The notes under the pieces are model-generated. The model had not been told where the DNA came from. It did not search any database and worked only from the letters and a program-made list of their open reading frames with translations. A program made the translations under genes and the position numbers. From a virus (lineage: Duplodnaviria > Heunggongvirae > Uroviricota > Caudoviricetes), in the IMG/VR virus record IMGVR_UViG_2537561979_000009, positions 1 to 41,073 of that record: 41,073 bases of DNA; one strand, given 5' to 3'. This document shows, in pieces, positions 6,068 through 32,959 of the stretch (positions are counted from its first letter, which is position 1; each line of letters opens with the position of its first letter).

Positions 6068-6708
6068 TTGTCGGTATACCTCTCTCGTTTGCTCAGTTGT
6101 TCAGGAATATGGTGCAGCAGCCCGCCGTCGCCGCAGTAAATGGCGGCATGATTCGGCACCGATGAACCAAAACAGCACAGCAGCACGTCGCCGGGCTGCG
6201 CCTCTGTCAGTGCGACACGGTAAAAACCAGTCGCCTCCATATTGTCAAGATAGAGATTCTGACCTGATTTCCACCAGTCATCATATCGGTAAAAATCCGG
6301 CAAATCGATACCTGCAAGATGATAGGCATCGCGGAACAGCGTATAACAGTCCGTCACCCCGTGCTCAAAGCACCGCCCGGTGAGATGCGGCACACAGCGG
6401 AACTTGTGAATCGCCCCCCGGCAGACCAGCCACCACGGCAAATCACTCTGCACCTGCAGCCGCCGGTCGGCCTCACTCAGCCAGGGCAGACCACCGGGGT
6501 GACTGTGGACCAGTGCCACAATCTCACCCTGCATCTCTGCCTGCAGCCAGTCCTCCGGCGACATCCGGAAATACGCCTCCGGCTCACCGGAGATATTCAC
6601 GCAGGGGAAATATCTTTCCCCCTCCGGCGCTCTCACCACGAAGCCGCACGACTCCGCTGGCGCACATCGCCGGGCGTGCGCCAGAATCGCTGATTCTGTC
6701 TCTGTCAT
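5965..6708 (-). CDS. K: Tail tip assembly protein K (MPN/JAB plus NlpC/P60 domains)
   Basis: HSHPGG JAMM-like motif and a C-terminal Cys/His NlpC/P60-like region; start taken at MTETES just after the L stop. Lambda K is annotated shorter, so an internal start near 6564 (MSPEDW) is an alternative. Confidence 0.85.
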   Translation of the reverse strand: MTETESAILAHARRCAPAESCGFVVRAPEGERYFPCVNISGEPEAYFRMSPEDWLQAEMQGEIVALVHSHPGGLPWLSEADRRLQVQSDLPWWLVCRGAIHKFRCVPHLTGRCFEHGVTDCYTLFRDAYHLAGIDLPDFYRYDDWWKSGQNLYLDNMEATGFYRVALTEAQPGDVLLCCFGSSVPNHAAIYCGDGGLLHHIPEQLSKRERYTDKWQRRTHSLWRHRAWHASAFTGICNDLAAASTFV

Positions 6709-21919: not shown

Positions 21920-22402
21920 TCATCGAAGGCATTGCGTCCTGATATATTCCTGAAGCGTTCTCAGTGCTGTCTGGTCTCTGATGATTCCGTCCCGGATACC
22001 GAGAACGTTTCGTCCAGCAACTGGAGAGAGTTCGACGGTGGCATCATTGCCCATGCCGGAGGCGCTGGAGGTTTCGGCTGAGGATGGCACAGGGCATTTT
22101 CCTTTGACGAGCACCCGACCACCATTATCAAGCTTGCGCCGAAGAGCATCATTTTCAGCTTTCGCATCAGCCAACTCCTTCGTGTATTTAGCATCGAGTA
22201 CATCAGCAGCACGCTGGCGTTGCTGCATGTCAGTAATGGTGGCGGTCGCCTGCTTCAGCTCACTGACTTTTTTATCACGCTGTTCTTTGTAGGCGATGGC
22301 GTTATCACGGTAATGATTGACCGCCCACGACAGGCAGACGATAGTGCAGATAACCAGAGCATAAATAATCGCGGCGACTCTGCTCACTGATCTATCCCCC
22401 AA
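21920..22402 (-). CDS. Rz: Spanin inner-membrane subunit Rz
   Basis: N-terminal TM segment ([26 protein letters not shown]) and coiled coil, lambda Rz-like; start overlaps the endolysin 3' end. Confidence 0.88.
21961..22167 (-). CDS. Rz1: Spanin outer-membrane lipoprotein Rz1, embedded in the +1 frame of Rz
   Basis: [21 protein letters not shown] lipobox followed by a proline-rich [11 protein letters not shown] segment. Confidence 0.8.
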
Positions 22403-22917
22403 CAGGCTAATGCGCTTTCCTGGTCACGACGAATAACCTGCCCATAGCAGTTATTTGAACGTATGCGGCAATCGCGCCCACCATCTTTTATCCACCAGCG
22501 AATCGCCTCGCATGCACTCTTACGATCACCGGCATTCAGCCGCTTATAAAACGTCGACGGGAAACACTTACCGGGGCCAATGTTATAGGGACAAAATGAC
22601 GCTATACCCGCTTTCTGTGGTTCGGTCAGTGGTACTTTAATATTGCGCTCCACCCATGCCAGCGCCCTATCACGCTCAATGGCATTAACCTGAGCGCATT
22701 TTTCCTTCGACAGCTTCATTCCCGGTATGACGGGCTTACCATCCACCATTGTGGCACCACGACAGATGGTCCATATACCGGAACCATCGCGGTATGCCGT
22801 TGTGTGGTTACCTTCTTTTTCATCCAGAAACTGGTCGAGAATATCAGGCGCAGGCGCACCGATGGCAATCAACGCCAGAACGGCAGCCGACAGGCCATAT
22901 TTGATTTTGGTGTTCAT
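22384..22917 (-). CDS. R: Endolysin, lysozyme family, with N-terminal SAR (signal-anchor-release) domain
   Basis: Gly/Ala-rich weakly hydrophobic N-terminus ([16 protein letters not shown]) then lysozyme-like domain; resembles the phage 21 / DLP12 RrrD type. Confidence 0.85.
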
Positions 22918-23045
22918 GGATATTTATCAGGATTTATCGGTTCCGAATCCCTGGATATGTTAAATCTTCAGCCCGCCAGCGGTAGGACACTGGCGTTTTT
23001 CCTGATGGCTGAAATATATCTGACAATTTCAGTAGAGGATTAACC

Positions 23046-23360
23046 ATGCATAACGATCAACATAATTATGATTTATGCCTGCAAGCCATAAATGAGCGGG
23101 TAAAATCAGAGTGCCTCTTACTCCTCCCACAAGAACACGATGCAGTAAAATCCATTCAGGCTGAGCCGTATGGACATCTCACACCTGTGACTCTCGGCAT
23201 TATCGCCAGAGCATTAACACAGCCCATGCTTATGCGTATTAAGACCAATATAAATAACTGGTTGAATGAAGAATTAAGCTACCTTGATTGTGAGTGGGAC
23301 AATCATTACGCAAAAACACAAAAAGAACGCATCTTCAGTCGATTATCCAGCAACAGATAA
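23046..23360 (+). CDS. Hypothetical protein, 104 aa, antisense to the lysis operon
   Basis: GAGGAT Shine-Dalgarno 8 nt before ATG; convergent with the 268-aa ORF, ends 10 nt apart; not recognised. Confidence 0.55.
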   Translation: MHNDQHNYDLCLQAINERVKSECLLLLPQEHDAVKSIQAEPYGHLTPVTLGIIARALTQPMLMRIKTNINNWLNEELSYLDCEWDNHYAKTQKERIFSRLSSNR

Positions 23361-23369
23361 CGAGCCACC

Positions 23370-24176
23370 TTATATACGCCCTTTCAGATAAGTCATCCCC
23401 GGCTGCATCCAGTCAACAGGTGCTTTCTTAAAGGGCGTATTATCAAAATCACGCAGAAGAGCCTCCAGCACAACTGCATCATTGTCAGCACCACTGGCCA
23501 TCATTTCAATCTCAGCTGCTACCTGCAGATATCCCATGCAACGACCAATGCGCTTCATCAGCCCCTGCTTTTTATTGTTCTTCAGGTAATCAATGGCAAA
23601 TTCAATGAGCGCCTCACTATGCTGGTGCGATGGCGGTGTTAATTTCCCATTTTCTGAGATGGTTATTTTCCCGCCATCTCCGTATACAACAAAGGATGGC
23701 CGGTTACACTCCCATTCCTGATCTTTATCAGGTGCAGACGCAATAAAATAACGTTTATTTCCTTCCTCTCCGGCACTTTTAACCGTAATGGAGTACTCAG
23801 ACTGCAGACAAGACGCCTCTTTTTCTGACCGCAGTGTTGACGGCGGCATCTTCAGAGAACCAGTAATTCTTCCCGGTAGCTTTCCTTTGTAGGTTATCCA
23901 CACATTCTGCGCCTCTAAAATTATGGGGCGCTTTTCCGGCGACAGCTCATCCCCTTCACATAACCCGGCAGCAACATCCAGGAAGACCTGTCTGATGCTC
24001 CTTCTGGCTGCTGCCTCATAAAACTCCAGCGCGGCACCTTCAACACGGTCCAGCGAGATGTCCAGGTCAAAAATTTCACCGTCAAAGCGTTTTTTGTCCC
24101 GTAACGCTACAGTTACCGTAACTTTATTCTCAAAATTGCGGATCCCTTTCACAATCAGTTCATAGTTTTGAGTCAT
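23370..24176 (-). CDS. Hypothetical protein, 268 aa, inserted between holin and endolysin
   Basis: Start 4 nt after the holin stop, same strand as the lysis genes; no recognisable motif. Confidence 0.6.
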   Translation of the reverse strand: MTQNYELIVKGIRNFENKVTVTVALRDKKRFDGEIFDLDISLDRVEGAALEFYEAAARRSIRQVFLDVAAGLCEGDELSPEKRPIILEAQNVWITYKGKLPGRITGSLKMPPSTLRSEKEASCLQSEYSITVKSAGEEGNKRYFIASAPDKDQEWECNRPSFVVYGDGGKITISENGKLTPPSHQHSEALIEFAIDYLKNNKKQGLMKRIGRCMGYLQVAAEIEMMASGADNDAVVLEALLRDFDNTPFKKAPVDWMQPGMTYLKGRI

Positions 24177-24180
24177 TGAA

Positions 24181-24396
24181 TTACTCTCCCCGTGCAGCCT
24201 TGCGACGGTCCTCTTTTATCTTGAAGTACAGATTCGTCAGATAAGTCAGAAAGCCCAGTGCCAGACTCCCCAGCACACCAATAGCAGCCCACTGTGAAGG
24301 ACTGACCTGATCAATCCACTGCAAAAACCAGTACCCGGCACTACCTGCTGAGGTGCCATAGGCAACACCCGTTGTTAACTTATCCATGGATTTCAT
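24181..24396 (-). CDS. S: Class II holin (pinholin, S21-like) with dual start motif
   Basis: 71 aa, MKSMDK... with Met1 and Met4, two TM segments, charged C-terminus; GGAGG Shine-Dalgarno. Confidence 0.85.
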
Positions 24397-24726: not shown

Positions 24727-24749
24727 AAAAAAAACCGCACGGCGGCGGG
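24727..24749 (-). terminator. tR'-like terminator of the late leader RNA (short GC hairpin plus U8 on the minus strand)
   Basis: Minus strand CCGCCGCCGUGCGG then UUUUUUUU, followed by GTCTGCACAACAGGTAAGAGCA..., which matches the lambda sequence just downstream of tR' as I recall it. Confidence 0.6.
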
Positions 24750-25200: not shown

Positions 25201-26307
25201 ATGAAAAATTTAACAGTGGCACTTTCTGCTGTAGCAGCATCAGTATTTCTGGCAACGTCTTCAAATGCAGCAGAAATATACAATAAAGATGCAAACAAAG
25301 TGGATTTATACGGTAAAGCAGTTGGTTTACATTATTTTTCTTCTGATAAGGACCAAAACGGAGATCAGACTTACGCACGCCTTGGATTCAGAGGTGAAAC
25401 CCAAATAAATAATTATATTACTGGTTTTGGTCAGTGGGAATATAATTTCCAGGGGAACAACCCTGAAGGGGATGGAGCTCAAACTGGAAACAAGACTCGC
25501 CTGGCATACGCTGGTCTGAAGCTTGCAGATGCTGGCTCTCTTGATTATGGTCGTAACTACGGCGTGGTGTACGACGCATTAAGCTACACTGACGTCTTCC
25601 CGGAGTTTGGACCTACCGCAGCGCAAGACGATAACTTCTTCGTTGGTCGTGTAGGCGGTGTTGCCACATACCGCAACACTGACTTTTTTGGACTGGTCGA
25701 TGGGCTTAGCTTTGCAATTCAGTATCTGGGAAAAAATGAACGCAAGGATAAACCAGATACTTCAAACGGAGAGGGTGTAGGTGGCTCTGTCAGCTATGAA
25801 TATGAAGGATTTGGTTTTGTCGCAGCATACGGCGCTGCTGATCGTACTAAAAATCAGAAAAAGGCTGAGCTTGGTAAAGGGAAAAAAGCTGAACAGTGGG
25901 CCACCGGGGTAAAATATGACGCAAATAATCTGTACCTGGCTGCCAGTTATGGTGAAACAAATAATACCCGTGCAATATCGTATGGTGATAATATTTCAGG
26001 AGTGGCGAATAAAACCGAAGATTTCACTGTTGTGGCACAATACCAGTTCGACTTTGGATTACGCCCGTCTCTTGCTTATACCCACTCTAAAGCAAAAAAC
26101 CTTTCATCCAGTACTGATATTAGTAAAAAACATGATGACGGATATATTGAAAAATTCGTTGAAGTCGGGGCTTCTTATTACTTCAACAAAAATATGTCTA
26201 CATACATAGATTACAAAATCAATATGCTCGATAAAAATAAATTCACTGAAAGAACAGGAGTATCAACCGACGATATTGTCGCTGTTGGTCTGGTTTATCA
26301 GTTCTGA
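25201..26307 (+). CDS. Outer membrane porin, OmpC/OmpF/PhoE family (prophage Lc/NmpC-like lysogenic conversion porin)
   Basis: 368 aa, signal peptide, ends in the beta-barrel motif ...VGLVYQF; AT-rich upstream region. Confidence 0.85.
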
Positions 26308-26485: not shown

Positions 26486-26923
26486 TTATATCCCTGCCCT
26501 GGAGGACGCAGTTTTACGACGTATCGAATAATTTGTGCTCACATATCGATCCATCTCAAGGCGAACATCCAGCATCATCAACATGCCATCGATAACTCCT
26601 TCCGCTTTCTGCAGGCGCTTACCAACGCAAGTATCCGAACATCCATGTTTCCTTGCTAACTTCATGAACGTAATCCCATATACGTAGTAATCAACCAGCA
26701 TGTCATGCATATCGGCGTTGTTCTTTTTCAGGCGAGCCATACAACCACATATAATCATCGCGTCATCATCGGAACACTGCGATCGCGATTTTACTTTTGA
26801 CGGTATCAGCCCCTTAAATCCGGCGGCAATGCCTGACCATTCCACGTCTTCATGATTATTTGCGACCCATGCCCCCCAACGTTCAAGAACCATTTGAATA
26901 TCACGCATCAACTTTCTCCACAA
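26486..26923 (-). CDS. Q: Late gene antiterminator Q (QuuD/phage 21-type family)
   Basis: Cys-rich ~140-aa protein ([14 protein letters not shown]... [11 protein letters not shown]) between the nin-like region and lysis genes; alternative starts at Met6 and Met11. Confidence 0.65.
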
Positions 26924-31799: not shown

Positions 31800-32959
31800 T
31801 TGCGCCCCCTTACCTCTGAAGGGTTCAGCGACAAATTTATGAGGCAGGCCAGTGCCGAAGCATCATTAATATAGTCATATAAGCTAACAGCCAGCGGAGA
31901 TTCGGCTTTTGCCAACATAGGATAAAGCTGCTGCAGCCAGACCTGATGAATTGATGAAATGTAGGAACAGAGAACGCTGGCGTTATGTGCAACGTCGCTC
32001 GGTACAGCGGGCTTTGAAAGCTGTTTCTCCATCTGGTTAAAGGCATTGATGTATGCCTCTTTGAACTGGGCAGCACGTTTCCCCGTGAAACCCATAGCAA
32101 GAAACGCAAAGCCGTCGCGGGTTATTTGATAGCAAGGAAGTTTGCGAGTACCGCCGTTGGGCTGGCGTACCAAAATTGATGTCTCCGCAAAATTGCGGGC
32201 ACAAAACTCTGGAGAACAATCCAAAATGCGGATCTTTTTCAGAACATCGTCATGACGTTTAGAGAAGAAGTCAGCAACAGCCAAAGAAGATGTAACAGCC
32301 TGACCATCAACGATGGCAATTTCAGGTTGAGAGAGGGTTGGGAGAGTAGTCATGGTGACAGCCCCGGTAGTCAGTTTTTTAGAAAACTCACCACATGGGA
32401 CGCCAATCACAGAGGTGGTGAGACGTACAGGGTTGGCGTTACCGGAGACTACCGAACCCGGCCCGACCGAAGTCGGCCCTGTACGCCCCACCATAATTTG
32501 GGCGTAGCAATGCTCATGACACGAAAAAACCGCATGAGCGCGGTTATGCTCAGTAATCAATTTCAGGACGCCAATCCCGGCACCCGTTTTATAAGGTGCC
32601 TGAACAGTGTAACGTCCCGGAATGGCAGAATCAATGTGCTGGTGGTCCTTCACACTCAACAAAATCACGCCTGAATTTCCACAAAGGACTAAAGCACTCA
32701 TGCGGGTAGTCTTTGCGAAAATAGATAACGCGCTGTGTTTCTGGTTCCCAACGAATAACATGAACATAAAGTCCTCTTCCGTCACGAAACCAGCGGTTAA
32801 GTTCCTGCACAACTCGCCCCCCACAGTCAGGTAAAGTTCTCTGTGGTTACTTACAGCCAGGTGATTTGGTAATCTGCATTCATGCCGTAACAACAGGTGT
32901 TCAGCCACGCGGACCACCAGCTGTTGCGACCAACGGTTATTTGCCGTTAAACTGTTCAT
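31796..32959 (-). CDS. Rha family phage regulatory protein; Rha domain in the C-terminal 185 aa, N-terminal 202 codons of uncertain reality
   Basis: MTTLPTLSQPEIAIVDGQAVTSSLAVADFFSKRHDDVLKKIRILDCSPEFCARNF...MGFTG matches the Phage_pRha pattern and begins at an internal Met near 32353; the ORF stays open to 32959. Confidence 0.6.
   Translation of the reverse strand: MNSLTANNRWSQQLVVRVAEHLLLRHECRLPNHLAVSNHRELYLTVGGELCRNLTAGFVTEEDFMFMLFVGNQKHSALSIFAKTTRMSALVLCGNSGVILLSVKDHQHIDSAIPGRYTVQAPYKTGAGIGVLKLITEHNRAHAVFSCHEHCYAQIMVGRTGPTSVGPGSVVSGNANPVRLTTSVIGVPCGEFSKKLTTGAVTMTTLPTLSQPEIAIVDGQAVTSSLAVADFFSKRHDDVLKKIRILDCSPEFCARNFAETSILVRQPNGGTRKLPCYQITRDGFAFLAMGFTGKRAAQFKEAYINAFNQMEKQLSKPAVPSDVAHNASVLCSYISSIHQVWLQQLYPMLAKAESPLAVSLYDYINDASALACLINLSLNPSEVRGRK

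What the first reader, a model, noticed from the sequence alone, without database searches (positions are those of the whole stretch)
23046..24176. Two unrecognised genes inserted inside the lysis cassette, between the pinholin and the SAR endolysin
Holin and endolysin are normally adjacent. Here a 268-aa ORF starts 4 nt after the holin stop on the late transcript, and a 104-aa ORF with a strong Shine-Dalgarno lies convergent to it, antisense to late transcription. I recognise neither protein. The layout suggests a cargo pair, one expressed with lysis and one possibly in the lysogen, for example a defence, exclusion or lysis-timing function. The arrangement is what the sequence shows; the function is inference.
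Basis: partly seen in the sequence, partly recalled or inferred. Interest (0 to 1): 0.72.

Follow-up and report, generated by a model that had tools for sequence, protein, structure and literature searches.

The report
YdfR-family gene plus swappable small gene
The two genes between the holin and the endolysin are real: one is the full-length form of the prophage YdfR family (a K-12 relative binds RNase E), the other is one of at least eleven interchangeable small genes that share a conserved structured leader, and neither has a known function.

Summary
Late genes lie on the minus strand. A 268-aa ORF (23370-24176) starts 4 nt after the S21-type holin stop. A 104-aa ORF (23046-23360, plus strand, GAGGA Shine-Dalgarno) converges on it with a 9-nt gap.

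The 268-aa protein belongs to a recognised family. It is a YdfR/DUF1327 protein, 82% identical over residues 1-74 to K-12 Qin YdfR, which sits in the same slot. It also has a conserved C-terminal "D" domain that RefSeq leaves unannotated. Salmonella relatives keep both domains, so the long form is probably ancestral.

The 104-aa gene ("o104") is a real gene: dN/dS is 0.39-0.49, AlphaFold pLDDT is 90, and Salmonella homologues are 43-46% identical. In every locus examined it converges on a D-domain gene.

Its roughly 130-nt leader has three hairpins. The same leader precedes at least 11 unrelated small ORFs, in the holin-endolysin gap or between the tape-measure and tail-tip genes. Their convergent neighbour is a YdfR-superfamily gene in the holin-endolysin, Salmonella and L164 loci and in the one tail-slot partner tested.

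No search gave a defence, toxin-antitoxin, lysis or RNA-family match of note. The function is inferred only: a late-expressed RNase E-binding protein paired with a swappable cargo gene transcribed antisense to the late operon. Interest is moderate.

The parts
24181..24396 (-). S21-type class II holin (71 aa, dual-start MKSMDK). Left anchor of the junction.
   Evidence: PF04971 at 5.5e-35; phrog_20 and phrog_9876 'holin'.
23961..24176 (-). Long YdfR, module A (aa 1-72): the DUF1327 domain. It corresponds to the region of K-12 YdfR mapped as the RNase E-binding surface.
   Evidence: PF07041 at 4.1e-42 over aa 1-100. 82% identical to K-12 YdfR over aa 1-74. Three strands plus a helix in the model, pLDDT about 61-79 in 10-residue blocks. 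RNase E binding of K-12 YdfR aa 1-72: PMC13232886.
23823..23960 (-). Long YdfR, module B (aa 73-118): linker (AAGLCEGDE...PEKRPIILEAQNVWITYKGKLPGRITGSLKMPPSTLRSEK). The recombination joint with the Stx2 phage 86 allele lies at its start.
   Evidence: Mosaic alignment. Low-confidence, unstructured in the model. Present in many truncated YdfR variants.
23370..23822 (-). Long YdfR, module D (aa 119-268, plus the stop codon): conserved C-terminal domain of unknown fold. Invariant residues are H186, I195, L198, G211, R212, L217, Q218, A220, A221, P248, K250, W256, P259, G260, Y263 and L264.
   Evidence: Conserved at 28-44% identity in Salmonella relatives. Also found as stand-alone C+D proteins of 213 aa. 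No Pfam or PDB hit. Not annotated in RefSeq although the ORF is intact.
23361..23369 (.). 9-nt spacer between the two convergent stop codons. There is no room for a terminator.
   Evidence: Sequence. No terminator-like site here. The spacing is 0-11 nt in all other pairs.
23046..23360 (+). o104: a 104-aa soluble five-helix protein, the cargo gene, antisense to late transcription. GC is 41% against 51% for the window.
   Evidence: phrog_1853 only. AlphaFold pLDDT 89.9. dN/dS 0.39-0.49. Salmonella homologues 43% and 46% identical. pI 6.2 and no transmembrane segment. Always followed by a convergent D-domain gene.
22928..23045 (+). Conserved structured leader of the cargo gene:
- HP1 at 22928-22953 (CAGGATT...AATCCCTG)
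- a -10-like TATGTT at 22956-22961
- HP2 at 22974-22995 (CGCCAG...CTGGCG)
- the conserved GATGGCTGA at 23004-23012
- HP3 at 23009-23032 (CTGAAAT...ATTTCAG)
- the Shine-Dalgarno GAGGA at 23035-23039
   Evidence: The HP2 motif occurs once in the window. It is present in 9 of the 160 loci fetched up to that point, all with an opposite-strand gene beside a YdfR-family gene. It also occurs in 42 IMG/VR loci. The distance to the start codon is fixed at 49-53 nt. HP2 shows one compensatory change and two wobble changes. HP3 stems differ while the loop is conserved. No Rfam match.
22384..22917 (-). R21-type endolysin with a SAR-like N-terminus. Right anchor of the junction. Its ATG lies 10 nt from HP1, and it has no good Shine-Dalgarno and no upstream gene to couple to.
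   Evidence: PF00959 at 6.8e-24 and phrog_7. Sequence. In K-12 the ydfR stop overlaps the rrrQ start. In other genera S and R overlap.
21920..22402 (-). Rz spanin, with a candidate embedded Rz1 ORF at 21961-22212 (-). This is the rest of the lysis cassette.
   Evidence: PF03245 at 7.6e-29 for Rz. The embedded ORF appears in the ORF list only and was called Rz1 from its position, not tested.

Best explanation
**What it is (shown).** This is a mosaic two-gene accessory module of lambdoid prophages.

- Gene 1 lies on the late strand. It is the full-length form of the YdfR family: an N-terminal DUF1327 domain, a linker, and a conserved C-terminal D domain.
- Gene 2 (o104) lies on the opposite strand, stop-to-stop with gene 1. 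It sits behind a conserved ~130-nt leader with three hairpins.
- That same leader precedes at least 11 unrelated small ORFs elsewhere. In the holin-endolysin, Salmonella and L164 loci, and in the one tail-slot partner tested, those ORFs converge on a YdfR-superfamily gene.
- So the YdfR-type gene and the leader are the constant parts, and the small ORF is a swappable cargo.

**How it most likely works (inferred).**
1. The long YdfR is made from the Q-antiterminated late transcript together with the lysis proteins.
2. Through its DUF1327 domain it binds the catalytic half of RNase E, as K-12 YdfR does. This alters RNA decay late in infection.
3. o104 is transcribed from its own leader when late transcription is off, in the lysogen or early in infection.
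4. o104 is silenced on induction, because the late transcript is fully antisense to it.
5. o104 is seen only next to a D domain, so it probably acts with or on that domain.

The cellular target and phenotype are unknown.
For: **Family and position**
- PF07041 at 142.7 bits.
- 82% identity to K-12 YdfR over aa 1-74, with the same 4-nt spacing after the holin.

**RNase E link**
- K-12 YdfR aa 1-72 binds Rne 1-597 in two-hybrid assays, co-purifies Rne 1-598, and co-purifies RNA (PMC13232886).

**The long form is conserved**
- Salmonella relatives at 28-44% identity keep both the DUF1327-like domain and the D core.
- They lie in the late region, between Q and the holin.

**The pair is conserved**
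- o104 homologues (43% and 46% identical, E 7e-34 and 2e-34) converge on the long YdfR in L154 and in L156/L157.
- Every o104 locus in IMG/VR has a D-domain gene 9-11 nt beyond its stop.
- The module is identical to Stx2 phage 86 in the alignment, with a joint at about codon 66.

**Leader and cargo**
- 42 IMG/VR loci carry the leader. The start codon lies 49-53 nt after HP2. The ORFs fall into 11 BLAST families, and each family that matched a PHROG matched a different one.
- HP2 and HP3 show compensatory and wobble changes that fit only the cargo strand.
- The tail-slot partner tested (L169) is homologous to a module of the long YdfR P0067, pairwise E 5e-14.

**o104 is a real gene**
- dN/dS 0.39-0.49, pLDDT 89.9, GC 41%.
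Against: - RNase E binding has been shown only for the short K-12 protein. Its overproduction changed few transcripts.
- No single YdfR module is universal among the partners. Some have A+B only, some C+D only, and some a different A-like module. Most tail-slot partners were linked to the superfamily by eye, not by a test. One common molecular activity of the partner is therefore doubtful.
- The D domain occurs without o104 in about 88% of the genomes that carry it: 787 genomes against 95. In the one such locus examined the ORF is intact. o104 is therefore dispensable for D.
- No sigma-70 consensus promoter was found for o104, and no expression data were examined.
- The model of the 268-aa protein is poor (pLDDT 53).
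- No fold or family match gives the D domain or o104 any biochemical activity.
Confidence: 0.4

Rival explanations
1. The two genes are independent morons at a recombination hot spot. On this view o104 is a stand-alone gene expressed in the lysogen, for exclusion, defence, anti-defence or host modulation, and has no functional tie to YdfR. It lies next to the D domain only because the conserved 3' end of the YdfR gene and the conserved leader act as homologous flanks for cassette exchange.
For: - The same leader precedes at least 11 unrelated small ORFs in two different late-operon slots.
- o104 has a lower GC content.
- The cargo is present or absent among close relatives, and the D domain is common without o104.
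- One alternative cargo (95 aa, L007) has a weak match to the PADLOC candidate PDC-S51, E 2.5e-5.
Against: - o104 is never seen without a D-domain gene. This holds in about 20 loci, in three genomic contexts and in two genera at 43-46% identity, whereas other cargos sit beside partners without D.
- o104 itself has no defence-family hit.
- There is no terminator after o104, unlike a classic moron.
Confidence: 0.3
2. The pair is an effector-inhibitor (toxin-antitoxin-like) pair. On this view the D domain is a harmful late effector. o104 is its cognate protein inhibitor, made in the lysogen to neutralise leaky late expression.
For: - o104 co-occurs strictly with D.
- The stop-to-stop spacing is tight and conserved.
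- The architecture, a conserved N-terminal part, a variable C-terminal part and a small neighbouring gene, recalls polymorphic toxin loci.
Against: - A D-bearing ORF without o104 is intact in the locus examined (L006), and D without o104 is far commoner than the pair.
- The D-tail allele does not track the presence of o104. The O157 pair has the same PAYW..PGLTYLK tail as loci without o104.
- The orientation is convergent, not an operon.
- No toxin, antitoxin or immunity domain was found in Pfam, NCBIfam or PADLOC.
Confidence: 0.15
3. The genes are lysis-timing accessories. On this view they regulate the pinholin or the SAR endolysin, as an antiholin or an endolysin-release regulator would.
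For: - The genes lie inside the lysis cassette. The 268-aa gene starts 4 nt after the holin stop.
- A genetic screen cited in PMC13232886 linked K-12 ydfR to envelope integrity.
Against: - Both proteins are soluble, with no transmembrane segment or signal peptide.
- S21-R21 cassettes in all other genera sampled work without them.
- Related modules sit between tail genes, or upstream of a different holin class.
Confidence: 0.08
4. The 104-aa ORF is a chance antisense ORF, and the 268-aa ORF is a decaying pseudogene, as RefSeq annotation implies.
For: - PGAP labels the gene 'incomplete, missing C-terminus'.
- Many family members are visibly frameshifted or truncated.
Against: - The ORF is an intact 268 codons here and in L001.
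- The D core has invariant residues across genera.
- For o104: conserved length, dN/dS below 0.5, a Shine-Dalgarno that is also present in the Salmonella loci, and a confident fold.
Confidence: 0.03

Closest known systems
E. coli K-12 Qin prophage YdfR (b1555, P76160; DUF1327/PF07041)
   Same: The N-terminal 74 residues are 82% identical. The position is the same, directly after an S21-type holin (essQ) with the same 4-nt spacer and before an R21-type lysozyme (rrrQ). By homology it is expected to share binding of the RNase E catalytic half (PMC13232886).
   Different: The K-12 protein has 103 aa. It lacks modules B and D and has a different short C-terminal helix. Its stop overlaps the rrrQ start. 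It has no opposite-strand gene and no leader.
Stx2-converting phage 86 gp05 (YdfR family, 268 aa) and gp06 (hypothetical, 104 aa), NC_008464
   Same: The four-gene layout is the same. The DNA is identical in the alignment from codon ~66 of gp05 through gp06 to the endolysin start, and gp06 is identical in protein sequence.
   Different: The holin and the DUF1327 domain are a different allele, about 53-56% identical in protein. Neither gene has been characterised: no paper in the library names them.
Phage morons (Hendrix/Juhala sense; for example lambda bor and lom, HK97 gp15). Comparison from my own knowledge.
   Same: An extra gene between genes of a late operon, present or absent among relatives, with a different base composition and presumably its own expression signals.
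   Different: Here the cargo is antisense to the operon, has no terminator of its own, shares a conserved three-hairpin leader with many unrelated cargos, and is paired with a convergent gene that, where tested, belongs to one protein superfamily.
Phage and host proteins that act on RNase E: T4 Srd, T7 gp0.7, phiKZ Dip, E. coli RapZ and RraA. Comparison from my own knowledge plus PMC13232886.
   Same: A small protein that contacts RNase E. Like Srd and RapZ, K-12 YdfR binds the N-terminal catalytic half and co-purifies with RNA.
   Different: There is no sequence or fold similarity to any of them. The effect on RNase E activity is unknown. Binding has not been tested for this 268-aa protein.
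Prophage-encoded sRNAs next to lysis genes (Pas sRNAs, AgvB, AsxR, STnc100)
   Same: Structured non-coding elements in intergenic regions of lambdoid late operons in Escherichia/Shigella.
   Different: PasA, PasC and PasD lie upstream of the holin, not between the YdfR gene and the endolysin. AgvB, AsxR and STnc100 are Rfam families, and no Rfam family matches the leader.

Membership tests
YdfR / DUF1327 family (PF07041) | Match to the Pfam model above its gathering score | tested here: met
   142.7 bits against a cut-off of 25, over aa 1-100.
YdfR / DUF1327 family (PF07041) | Located directly downstream of a class II (S21-type) holin in a lambdoid late operon | tested here: met
   4 nt after the holin stop, as in K-12 Qin. 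43 of 80 IMG/VR loci show the same arrangement.
YdfR / DUF1327 family (PF07041) | Binds the N-terminal catalytic half of RNase E (the property reported for K-12 YdfR) | not testable with these tools
   Only 82% identity over the mapped interaction region (PMC13232886).
Type II toxin-antitoxin system | Two co-oriented, co-transcribed small genes with a recognisable toxin or antitoxin domain | tested here: not met
   The genes are convergent. No toxin or antitoxin domain in Pfam, NCBIfam or PADLOC.
Type II toxin-antitoxin system | The toxin gene is not maintained without its antitoxin | tested here: not met
   D without o104 in about 88% of D-bearing genomes, with an intact ORF in L006.
Moron (autonomous extra gene in a phage operon) | Present or absent among otherwise related phages, and of atypical base composition | tested here: met
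   o104 is in 95 of 5426 E. coli genomes and in 4 of 50,697 phage records. GC is 41% against 51%.
Moron (autonomous extra gene in a phage operon) | Own promoter upstream and own terminator downstream | tested here: inconclusive
   No sigma-70 consensus hit and no terminator after the stop. A conserved -10-like TAWRGT element between HP1 and HP2 is only suggestive.
Known anti-phage defence systems (PADLOC-DB 2.0) | Match to a defence-protein model | tested here: not met
   0 families for both window proteins. For relatives and alternative cargos there are only weak hits: PDC-S51 at 2.5e-5 for the L007 95-aa protein, PDC-S26 at 0.023, and Aga_Nuclease at 0.0068.
Lysis accessory proteins (antiholin, spanin, membrane-acting regulators) | Transmembrane segment, signal or lipoprotein sequence, or homology to a lysis PHROG | tested here: not met
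   No hydrophobic segment: the maximum 19-residue Kyte-Doolittle means are 0.87 and 1.16. The PHROG matches all have unknown function.
RpiR-type HTH regulators (a lead for o104) | Significant sequence or fold match to the HTH_6 domain | tested here: not met
Rfam RNA families (for the leader) | Match at or near a family's gathering score | tested here: not met
   Nothing in 22880-23080 at gathering score. The best E-value hits are 4.9-9.8, to unrelated eukaryotic or staphylococcal families.

The most novel reading that the evidence does not exclude
The conserved parts form a dedicated post-transcriptional switch. On this reading the YdfR-superfamily protein recognises the conserved hairpin loop (GAUGGCUGA) in the leader of the cargo mRNA and hands that mRNA to RNase E, as RapZ hands GlmZ to RNase E. 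A hypervariable set of small cargo proteins, perhaps defence or counter-defence factors, would then be expressed in the lysogen and destroyed once late genes turn on. This would give YdfR/DUF1327 a function and define a new cis-regulatory RNA class and a new cargo hot spot in lambdoid phages.
Probability: 0.1. Interest if true: 0.85.

Novelty: new variant of a known kind. Interest (0 to 1): 0.52.

Why it matters
- **YdfR.** YdfR/DUF1327 is one of the commonest uncharacterised prophage genes in E. coli, and K-12 carries one. This locus shows that the K-12 protein is probably a truncated form of a two-domain protein. Its conserved C-terminal domain is missing from RefSeq annotation.
- **RNase E.** A 2026 report shows that K-12 YdfR binds RNase E. 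Together with that, this locus gives a concrete and testable idea: a late-phase phage modulator of RNA decay.
- **Cargo hot spot.** The conserved three-hairpin leader in front of at least eleven unrelated small ORFs, in two late-operon slots, marks a cargo hot spot. The leader sequence can be used to find more small phage proteins. Such hot spots have been productive sources of defence and anti-defence genes.
- **Medical relevance.** Part of the module is carried by Shiga-toxin phages and by the O104:H4 outbreak lineage.

Tried and rejected
2. **Fold searches.**
   - o104 against BFVD: nothing below E 0.9.
   - The afdb50 library was not available.
3. **D domain as a duplicate of DUF1327.** hhalign probability 0.14%.
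4. **D-core motif KRLGRCMGLLQVAAEIE against 8tch 'pathogenicity island protein'.** 25 residues at E 0.06, too short to use.
5. **Family libraries.** PADLOC, NCBIfam and Pfam gave nothing for o104 or for the D domain.
6. **Promoter and terminator scans.** No sigma-70 site for o104. HP2 followed by a T-run looks like a terminator in the window, but the T-run is not conserved in the Salmonella or tail-slot loci.
7. **Folding of the intergenic region alone.** z-scores of -1.3 and -2.0, not decisive.
8. **Literature.** No paper names the phage 86 genes or links YdfR to holin and endolysin. The Pas sRNA preprint concerns other intergenic sites, and the PasB sequence was not obtainable.
9. **RNAalifold on the leader.** It recovered HP1 and HP2 but not HP3, because the loop lengths differ and the alignment goes out of register. 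HP3 was therefore assessed sequence by sequence.
Full report
**1. The observation**

Late genes lie on the minus strand. In order they are: DUF968, Q antiterminator (26486-26923), a plus-strand porin gene (25201-26307), a tR'-like terminator near 24734-24746, holin, the two ORFs in question, endolysin, Rz (with a candidate embedded Rz1 ORF), Nu1 and terminase.

- The holin (24181-24396) is S21-type (PF04971, 5.5e-35).
- The 268-aa ORF (23370-24176) starts 4 nt after the holin stop.
- The 104-aa ORF (23046-23360, plus strand) has a GAGGA 6 nt upstream of its ATG. It ends 9 nt from the stop of the 268-aa ORF.
- The endolysin (22384-22917, PF00959) starts 128 nt beyond the 104-aa ORF's start.

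The description is accurate.

**2. The 268-aa protein**

It is a YdfR-family protein. PF07041 (DUF1327) scores 142.7 bits over aa 1-100, and phrog_1085 matches over the full length. E. coli K-12 has the same arrangement in the Qin prophage: essQ, a 4-nt spacer, ydfR (103 aa), then rrrQ. The window protein is 82% identical to K-12 YdfR over residues 1-74.

The family is highly mosaic. I distinguish four modules:
- A: the DUF1327 domain, aa 1-72.
- B: a linker, aa 73-118.
- C: an optional coiled-coil module, absent here.
- D: a C-terminal domain, aa 119-268.

A search of 1.84 billion representative proteins found only 82 relatives. The distant ones, at 28-44% identity, keep both a divergent DUF1327-like domain and the D core. 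The D core has 16 invariant residues, including H186, G211-R212, L217-Q218, P248, K250, W256 and P259-G260. The three of these relatives that carry a source name are from Salmonella enterica.

The two-domain form is therefore probably ancestral. The short K-12 protein and the many 176-211-aa and frameshifted variants are reduced forms.

RefSeq annotates only the first ~112 codons as 'YdfR family protein, incomplete, pseudo', although the ORFs are intact. As a result the D domain shows 'none' as its annotated feature in many of the genomes listed.

**3. The 104-aa protein (o104)**

It matches only phrog_1853. Word-indexed searches found 13 and then 24 clusters, all from E. coli.

It is a real gene:
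- Its length is conserved at 101-111 aa.
- dN/dS is 0.39-0.49.
- Its Shine-Dalgarno is also present in the Salmonella loci.
- AlphaFold gives a confident five-helix model, pLDDT 89.9 and pTM 0.83.

**4. Is the junction normally empty?**

I fetched 146 loci that encode a relative of this holin and classified them.

| Sample | YdfR-family gene after the holin | Holin and lysozyme adjacent |
|---|---|---|
| 66 species-representative loci | 12 | 44 |
| 80 IMG/VR loci closest to this holin | 43 | 35 |

- In the species-representative set, all 12 loci with a YdfR-family gene are Escherichia/Shigella or Escherichia-like contigs.
- The 44 adjacent or overlapping pairs have gaps of -16 to +5 nt. They include every other genus sampled: Kluyvera, Enterobacter, Klebsiella, Kosakonia, Phytobacter, Raoultella and others.
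- Junction lengths fall in discrete classes: 312, 374, 418, 692, 877, 888 and 1085 nt. The window's 1263 nt was unique in this sample.

In Escherichia, however, a YdfR-type gene is a frequent resident of this junction.

**5. Distribution of this particular pair**

- The full four-gene layout is in 54 of 5426 complete E. coli genomes, including 55989 and the O104:H4 outbreak lineage. Among 50,697 phage records it occurs only in Stx2-converting phage 86, as gp04-gp07.
- The alignment shows a recombination joint at about codon 66 of the YdfR gene. Upstream of it the window resembles K-12 Qin. Downstream, through D, o104 and the intergenic region to the endolysin start, it is identical in the alignment to phage 86.
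- o104 is in 95 genomes (132 places). The D domain is in 787 genomes (970 places). D is therefore usually without o104. One example is L006, where an intact 297-aa (GTG-start) YdfR ORF ends 36 nt from the endolysin start.
- The converse does not occur. Every o104 locus examined has a D-domain gene converging on it at 0-11 nt. The partner is A+B+D in some, C+D only in O157-type prophages, and a remnant in strain A34.

**6. The pair is conserved in another genus and in other positions**

The first two pairs below were found through context look-ups of the distant relatives; the third row is the window itself.

| Locus | Partner | o104 homologue | Position |
|---|---|---|---|
| L156/L157 (S. Dublin) | 266-aa long YdfR | 105 aa, 46% identical, E 2e-34, stops 5 nt apart | After Q, a HicAB pair and a tR'-like terminator; upstream of a holin_2_3-lysozyme-Rz cassette |
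| L154 | 297-aa relative | 111 aa, 43% identical, E 7e-34, stops abut | After a DUF4406 gene |
| The window | 268 aa | 104 aa | Between holin and endolysin |

Other relatives lack o104. In L159 the slot holds a DUF1883 gene instead. L158 has nothing there. L155 has a co-directional membrane-protein gene, and its long YdfR lies just upstream of an S21-type holin that overlaps its lysozyme.

**7. The leader**

The 128-nt region between the endolysin start and the o104 start is more conserved than o104 itself. It is shared with a locus (L007) that has an unrelated 95-aa gene in the slot.

Its core is a hairpin, HP2: TCAGCCYGYCAGYG, then a loop, then CACTGG.
- It occurs once in the window.
- It is present in 9 of the 160 loci fetched up to that point. 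All 9 have an opposite-strand gene next to a YdfR-family gene.
- An exact-pattern scan of IMG/VR found 42 more loci.

In most loci with room for an ORF, a small ORF of 70-111 aa with a Shine-Dalgarno starts 49-53 nt after HP2. The DUF1883 locus has 30 nt instead, and five loci have a truncated family-3 ORF that starts 13 nt after HP2 without a Shine-Dalgarno. These ORFs fall into 11 families at BLASTP 1e-3. o104 is the largest, with 16 loci. Eight of the ten representatives tested matched PHROGs of unknown function, seven different ones, because the two members of one BLAST family share phrog_6806. The other two matched none. None has a meaningful PADLOC hit.

The loci fall into three contexts:
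- **Holin-endolysin junction.** This holds o104, the 91-aa family (whose partner is a YdfR with A+B but no D), and the 95-aa gene.
- **Between the tape-measure gene and the minor tail genes M, L and K** (PF09718, PF05939, PF05100, JAB+NlpC/P60). Six other families sit here.
- **Another context (L164).** The convergent partner there is DUF1327-like: the A-module profile scores E 2.8e-20.

In the tail slot the convergent neighbour is a 78-119-aa protein that usually begins MTLEQRVE.LE. One of these (L169) is homologous to an internal module of the long YdfR P0067, aa 129-190, pairwise E 5e-14. The other tail-slot partners were assigned to the superfamily by eye only.

**8. Structure of the leader**

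In order the leader contains:
1. HP1 (CAGG...CCTG).
2. A short -10-like element, TAWRGT.
3. HP2, with 8 base pairs.
4. About 20 nt of spacer.
5. HP3, which carries the conserved loop GATGGCTGA.
6. A Shine-Dalgarno and the ATG.

RNAalifold recovers HP1 and HP2. HP2 shows one double (compensatory) change and two G-U changes.

HP3 is predicted sequence by sequence in 11 of the 13 leaders outside the E. coli o104 type. The two with weaker support are L007, with only a 4-bp stem, and L167, where the minimum-energy fold shows no such stem. The stems differ: GGAGG/CCTCT, GCGAG/CTCGC, CCGAC.GG/CC.TCGG, CAGGGG/CCTCTG and CCGGAGG/CTTCTGG. In E. coli o104 leaders the hairpin is shifted so that GGCTG lies in or beside the 5' arm.

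The G-U pairs are valid only on the cargo strand. This points to an RNA element in the cargo transcript. No Rfam family matches it.

I could not assign a promoter. If TAWRGT is a -10 element, transcription would start at the foot of HP2, giving a 5'-terminal stem-loop. That is an inference.

**9. Mechanism**

Shown:
- A late-strand YdfR-superfamily gene.
- A convergent small cargo gene behind a conserved structured leader.
- Cargo exchange between conserved flanks.
- Strict linkage of o104 to the D domain.

Taken from the literature: K-12 YdfR, through aa 1-72, binds the catalytic half of RNase E in two-hybrid assays, co-purifies Rne 1-598 and co-purifies RNA. Its overproduction changes few transcripts (PMC13232886).

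Inferred:
- The 268-aa protein is made late and acts on RNase E.
- o104 is expressed when late transcription is off, and is silenced by the fully antisense late transcript.
- o104 works with or on the D domain.

Against a single simple mechanism:
- Partners differ in which modules they carry.
- The D domain commonly lacks o104.
- No biochemical activity can be assigned to D or to o104.

The main rival is that o104 is an independent moron, and that its adjacency to D reflects recombination between conserved flanks. A toxin-antitoxin reading and a lysis-timing reading are less likely, for the reasons given under the rival explanations.

**10. Novelty and score**

Both genes are already in public records as 'YdfR family protein' and 'hypothetical protein'. 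The same pair is in Stx2 phage 86. The finding is therefore not a new gene discovery, and the 268-aa gene is a regular occupant of this junction in Escherichia.

The following appear to be undescribed in the library searched:
- The conserved, unannotated D domain.
- The conserved convergent partnership with o104 across two genera.
- The shared three-hairpin leader in front of many unrelated small ORFs in two late-operon slots.

I rate it a new variant of a known kind, phage accessory or moron cassettes. Interest is moderate because the function is still inferred.

Noticed in passing
window 22928-23045 (+); also L161-L202, L004, L005, L007, L154, L156, L159: A conserved ~130-nt three-hairpin leader lies a fixed 49-53 nt before the start of small ORFs from at least 11 unrelated families. 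It has no Rfam match. It may be a new cis-regulatory RNA and a marker for a cargo hot spot.
   Followed up: partly
L163 (hairpin at 6259), L169 (4746), and L167, L173, L185, L196: The same leader and cargo, with a convergent 78-119-aa gene, is inserted between the tape-measure gene and the minor tail genes M, L and K. In several of these loci (for example L163, L167, L182, L196) a strong intrinsic terminator on the late strand (GCCACC-CGAA-GGTGGC plus a T-run) separates the module from gene M.
   Followed up: partly
L001 6471-7277; L006 3000-3893; hits H96-H98 and others: RefSeq/PGAP annotates intact long YdfR ORFs (268 and 297 codons) as 'incomplete, missing C-terminus' pseudogenes covering only about 112 codons. 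The conserved D domain is therefore unannotated in many of the genomes listed.
   Followed up: yes
window 32411-32498 (-) and 32523-32599 (-): Rfam matches above gathering score to C4 antisense RNA (82.3 bits) and the isrK Hfq-binding RNA (60.1 bits), side by side. From my own knowledge this resembles a P1/P7-type antirepressor control region; I did not test that here.
   Followed up: no
window 25201-26307 (+): A complete OmpC-type porin gene (PF00267, 2.9e-125) lies on the opposite strand between the Q antiterminator and the holin. It is a classic lysogenic-conversion moron in the same late-promoter region.
   Followed up: partly
window 22918-22945 (-); compare L003 4055-4058: The endolysin has no recognisable Shine-Dalgarno. 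In K-12 its start overlaps the ydfR stop (ATGA), and in other genera it overlaps the holin. Here the nearest co-directional stop is 452 nt upstream, so translational coupling is lost. Endolysin translation must start unaided, on an mRNA that can pair with o104 RNA.
   Followed up: no
L156-L160 (Salmonella enterica prophages): A HicA/HicB toxin-antitoxin pair sits on the opposite strand between the Q gene and the first late gene, which is the long YdfR relative. It is conserved in all five loci.
   Followed up: no
L088, L091, L095, L100, L102, L141: Contigs with Enterobacteriaceae-type S21 holins (72-92% identical to the window's; 83-92% for the first five, 72% for L141) are binned into MAGs labelled Segatella copri, Nanosynbacter, Bacillota, Veillonella parvula and Geobacteraceae. 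This is most likely binning contamination.
   Followed up: no
L185 tail-slot partner (119 aa, MTLEKRVEELE...): Its N-terminal coiled coil gives a weak Pfam hit to SlyX (E 0.078). SlyX is the other small protein reported with YdfR as a binder of the RNase E catalytic half. This is probably only coiled-coil similarity.
   Followed up: no
L007 2453-2740 (+): The alternative 95-aa cargo in the same slot has a weak match (E 2.5e-5, 59 residues) to the PADLOC candidate defence protein PDC-S51.
   Followed up: no
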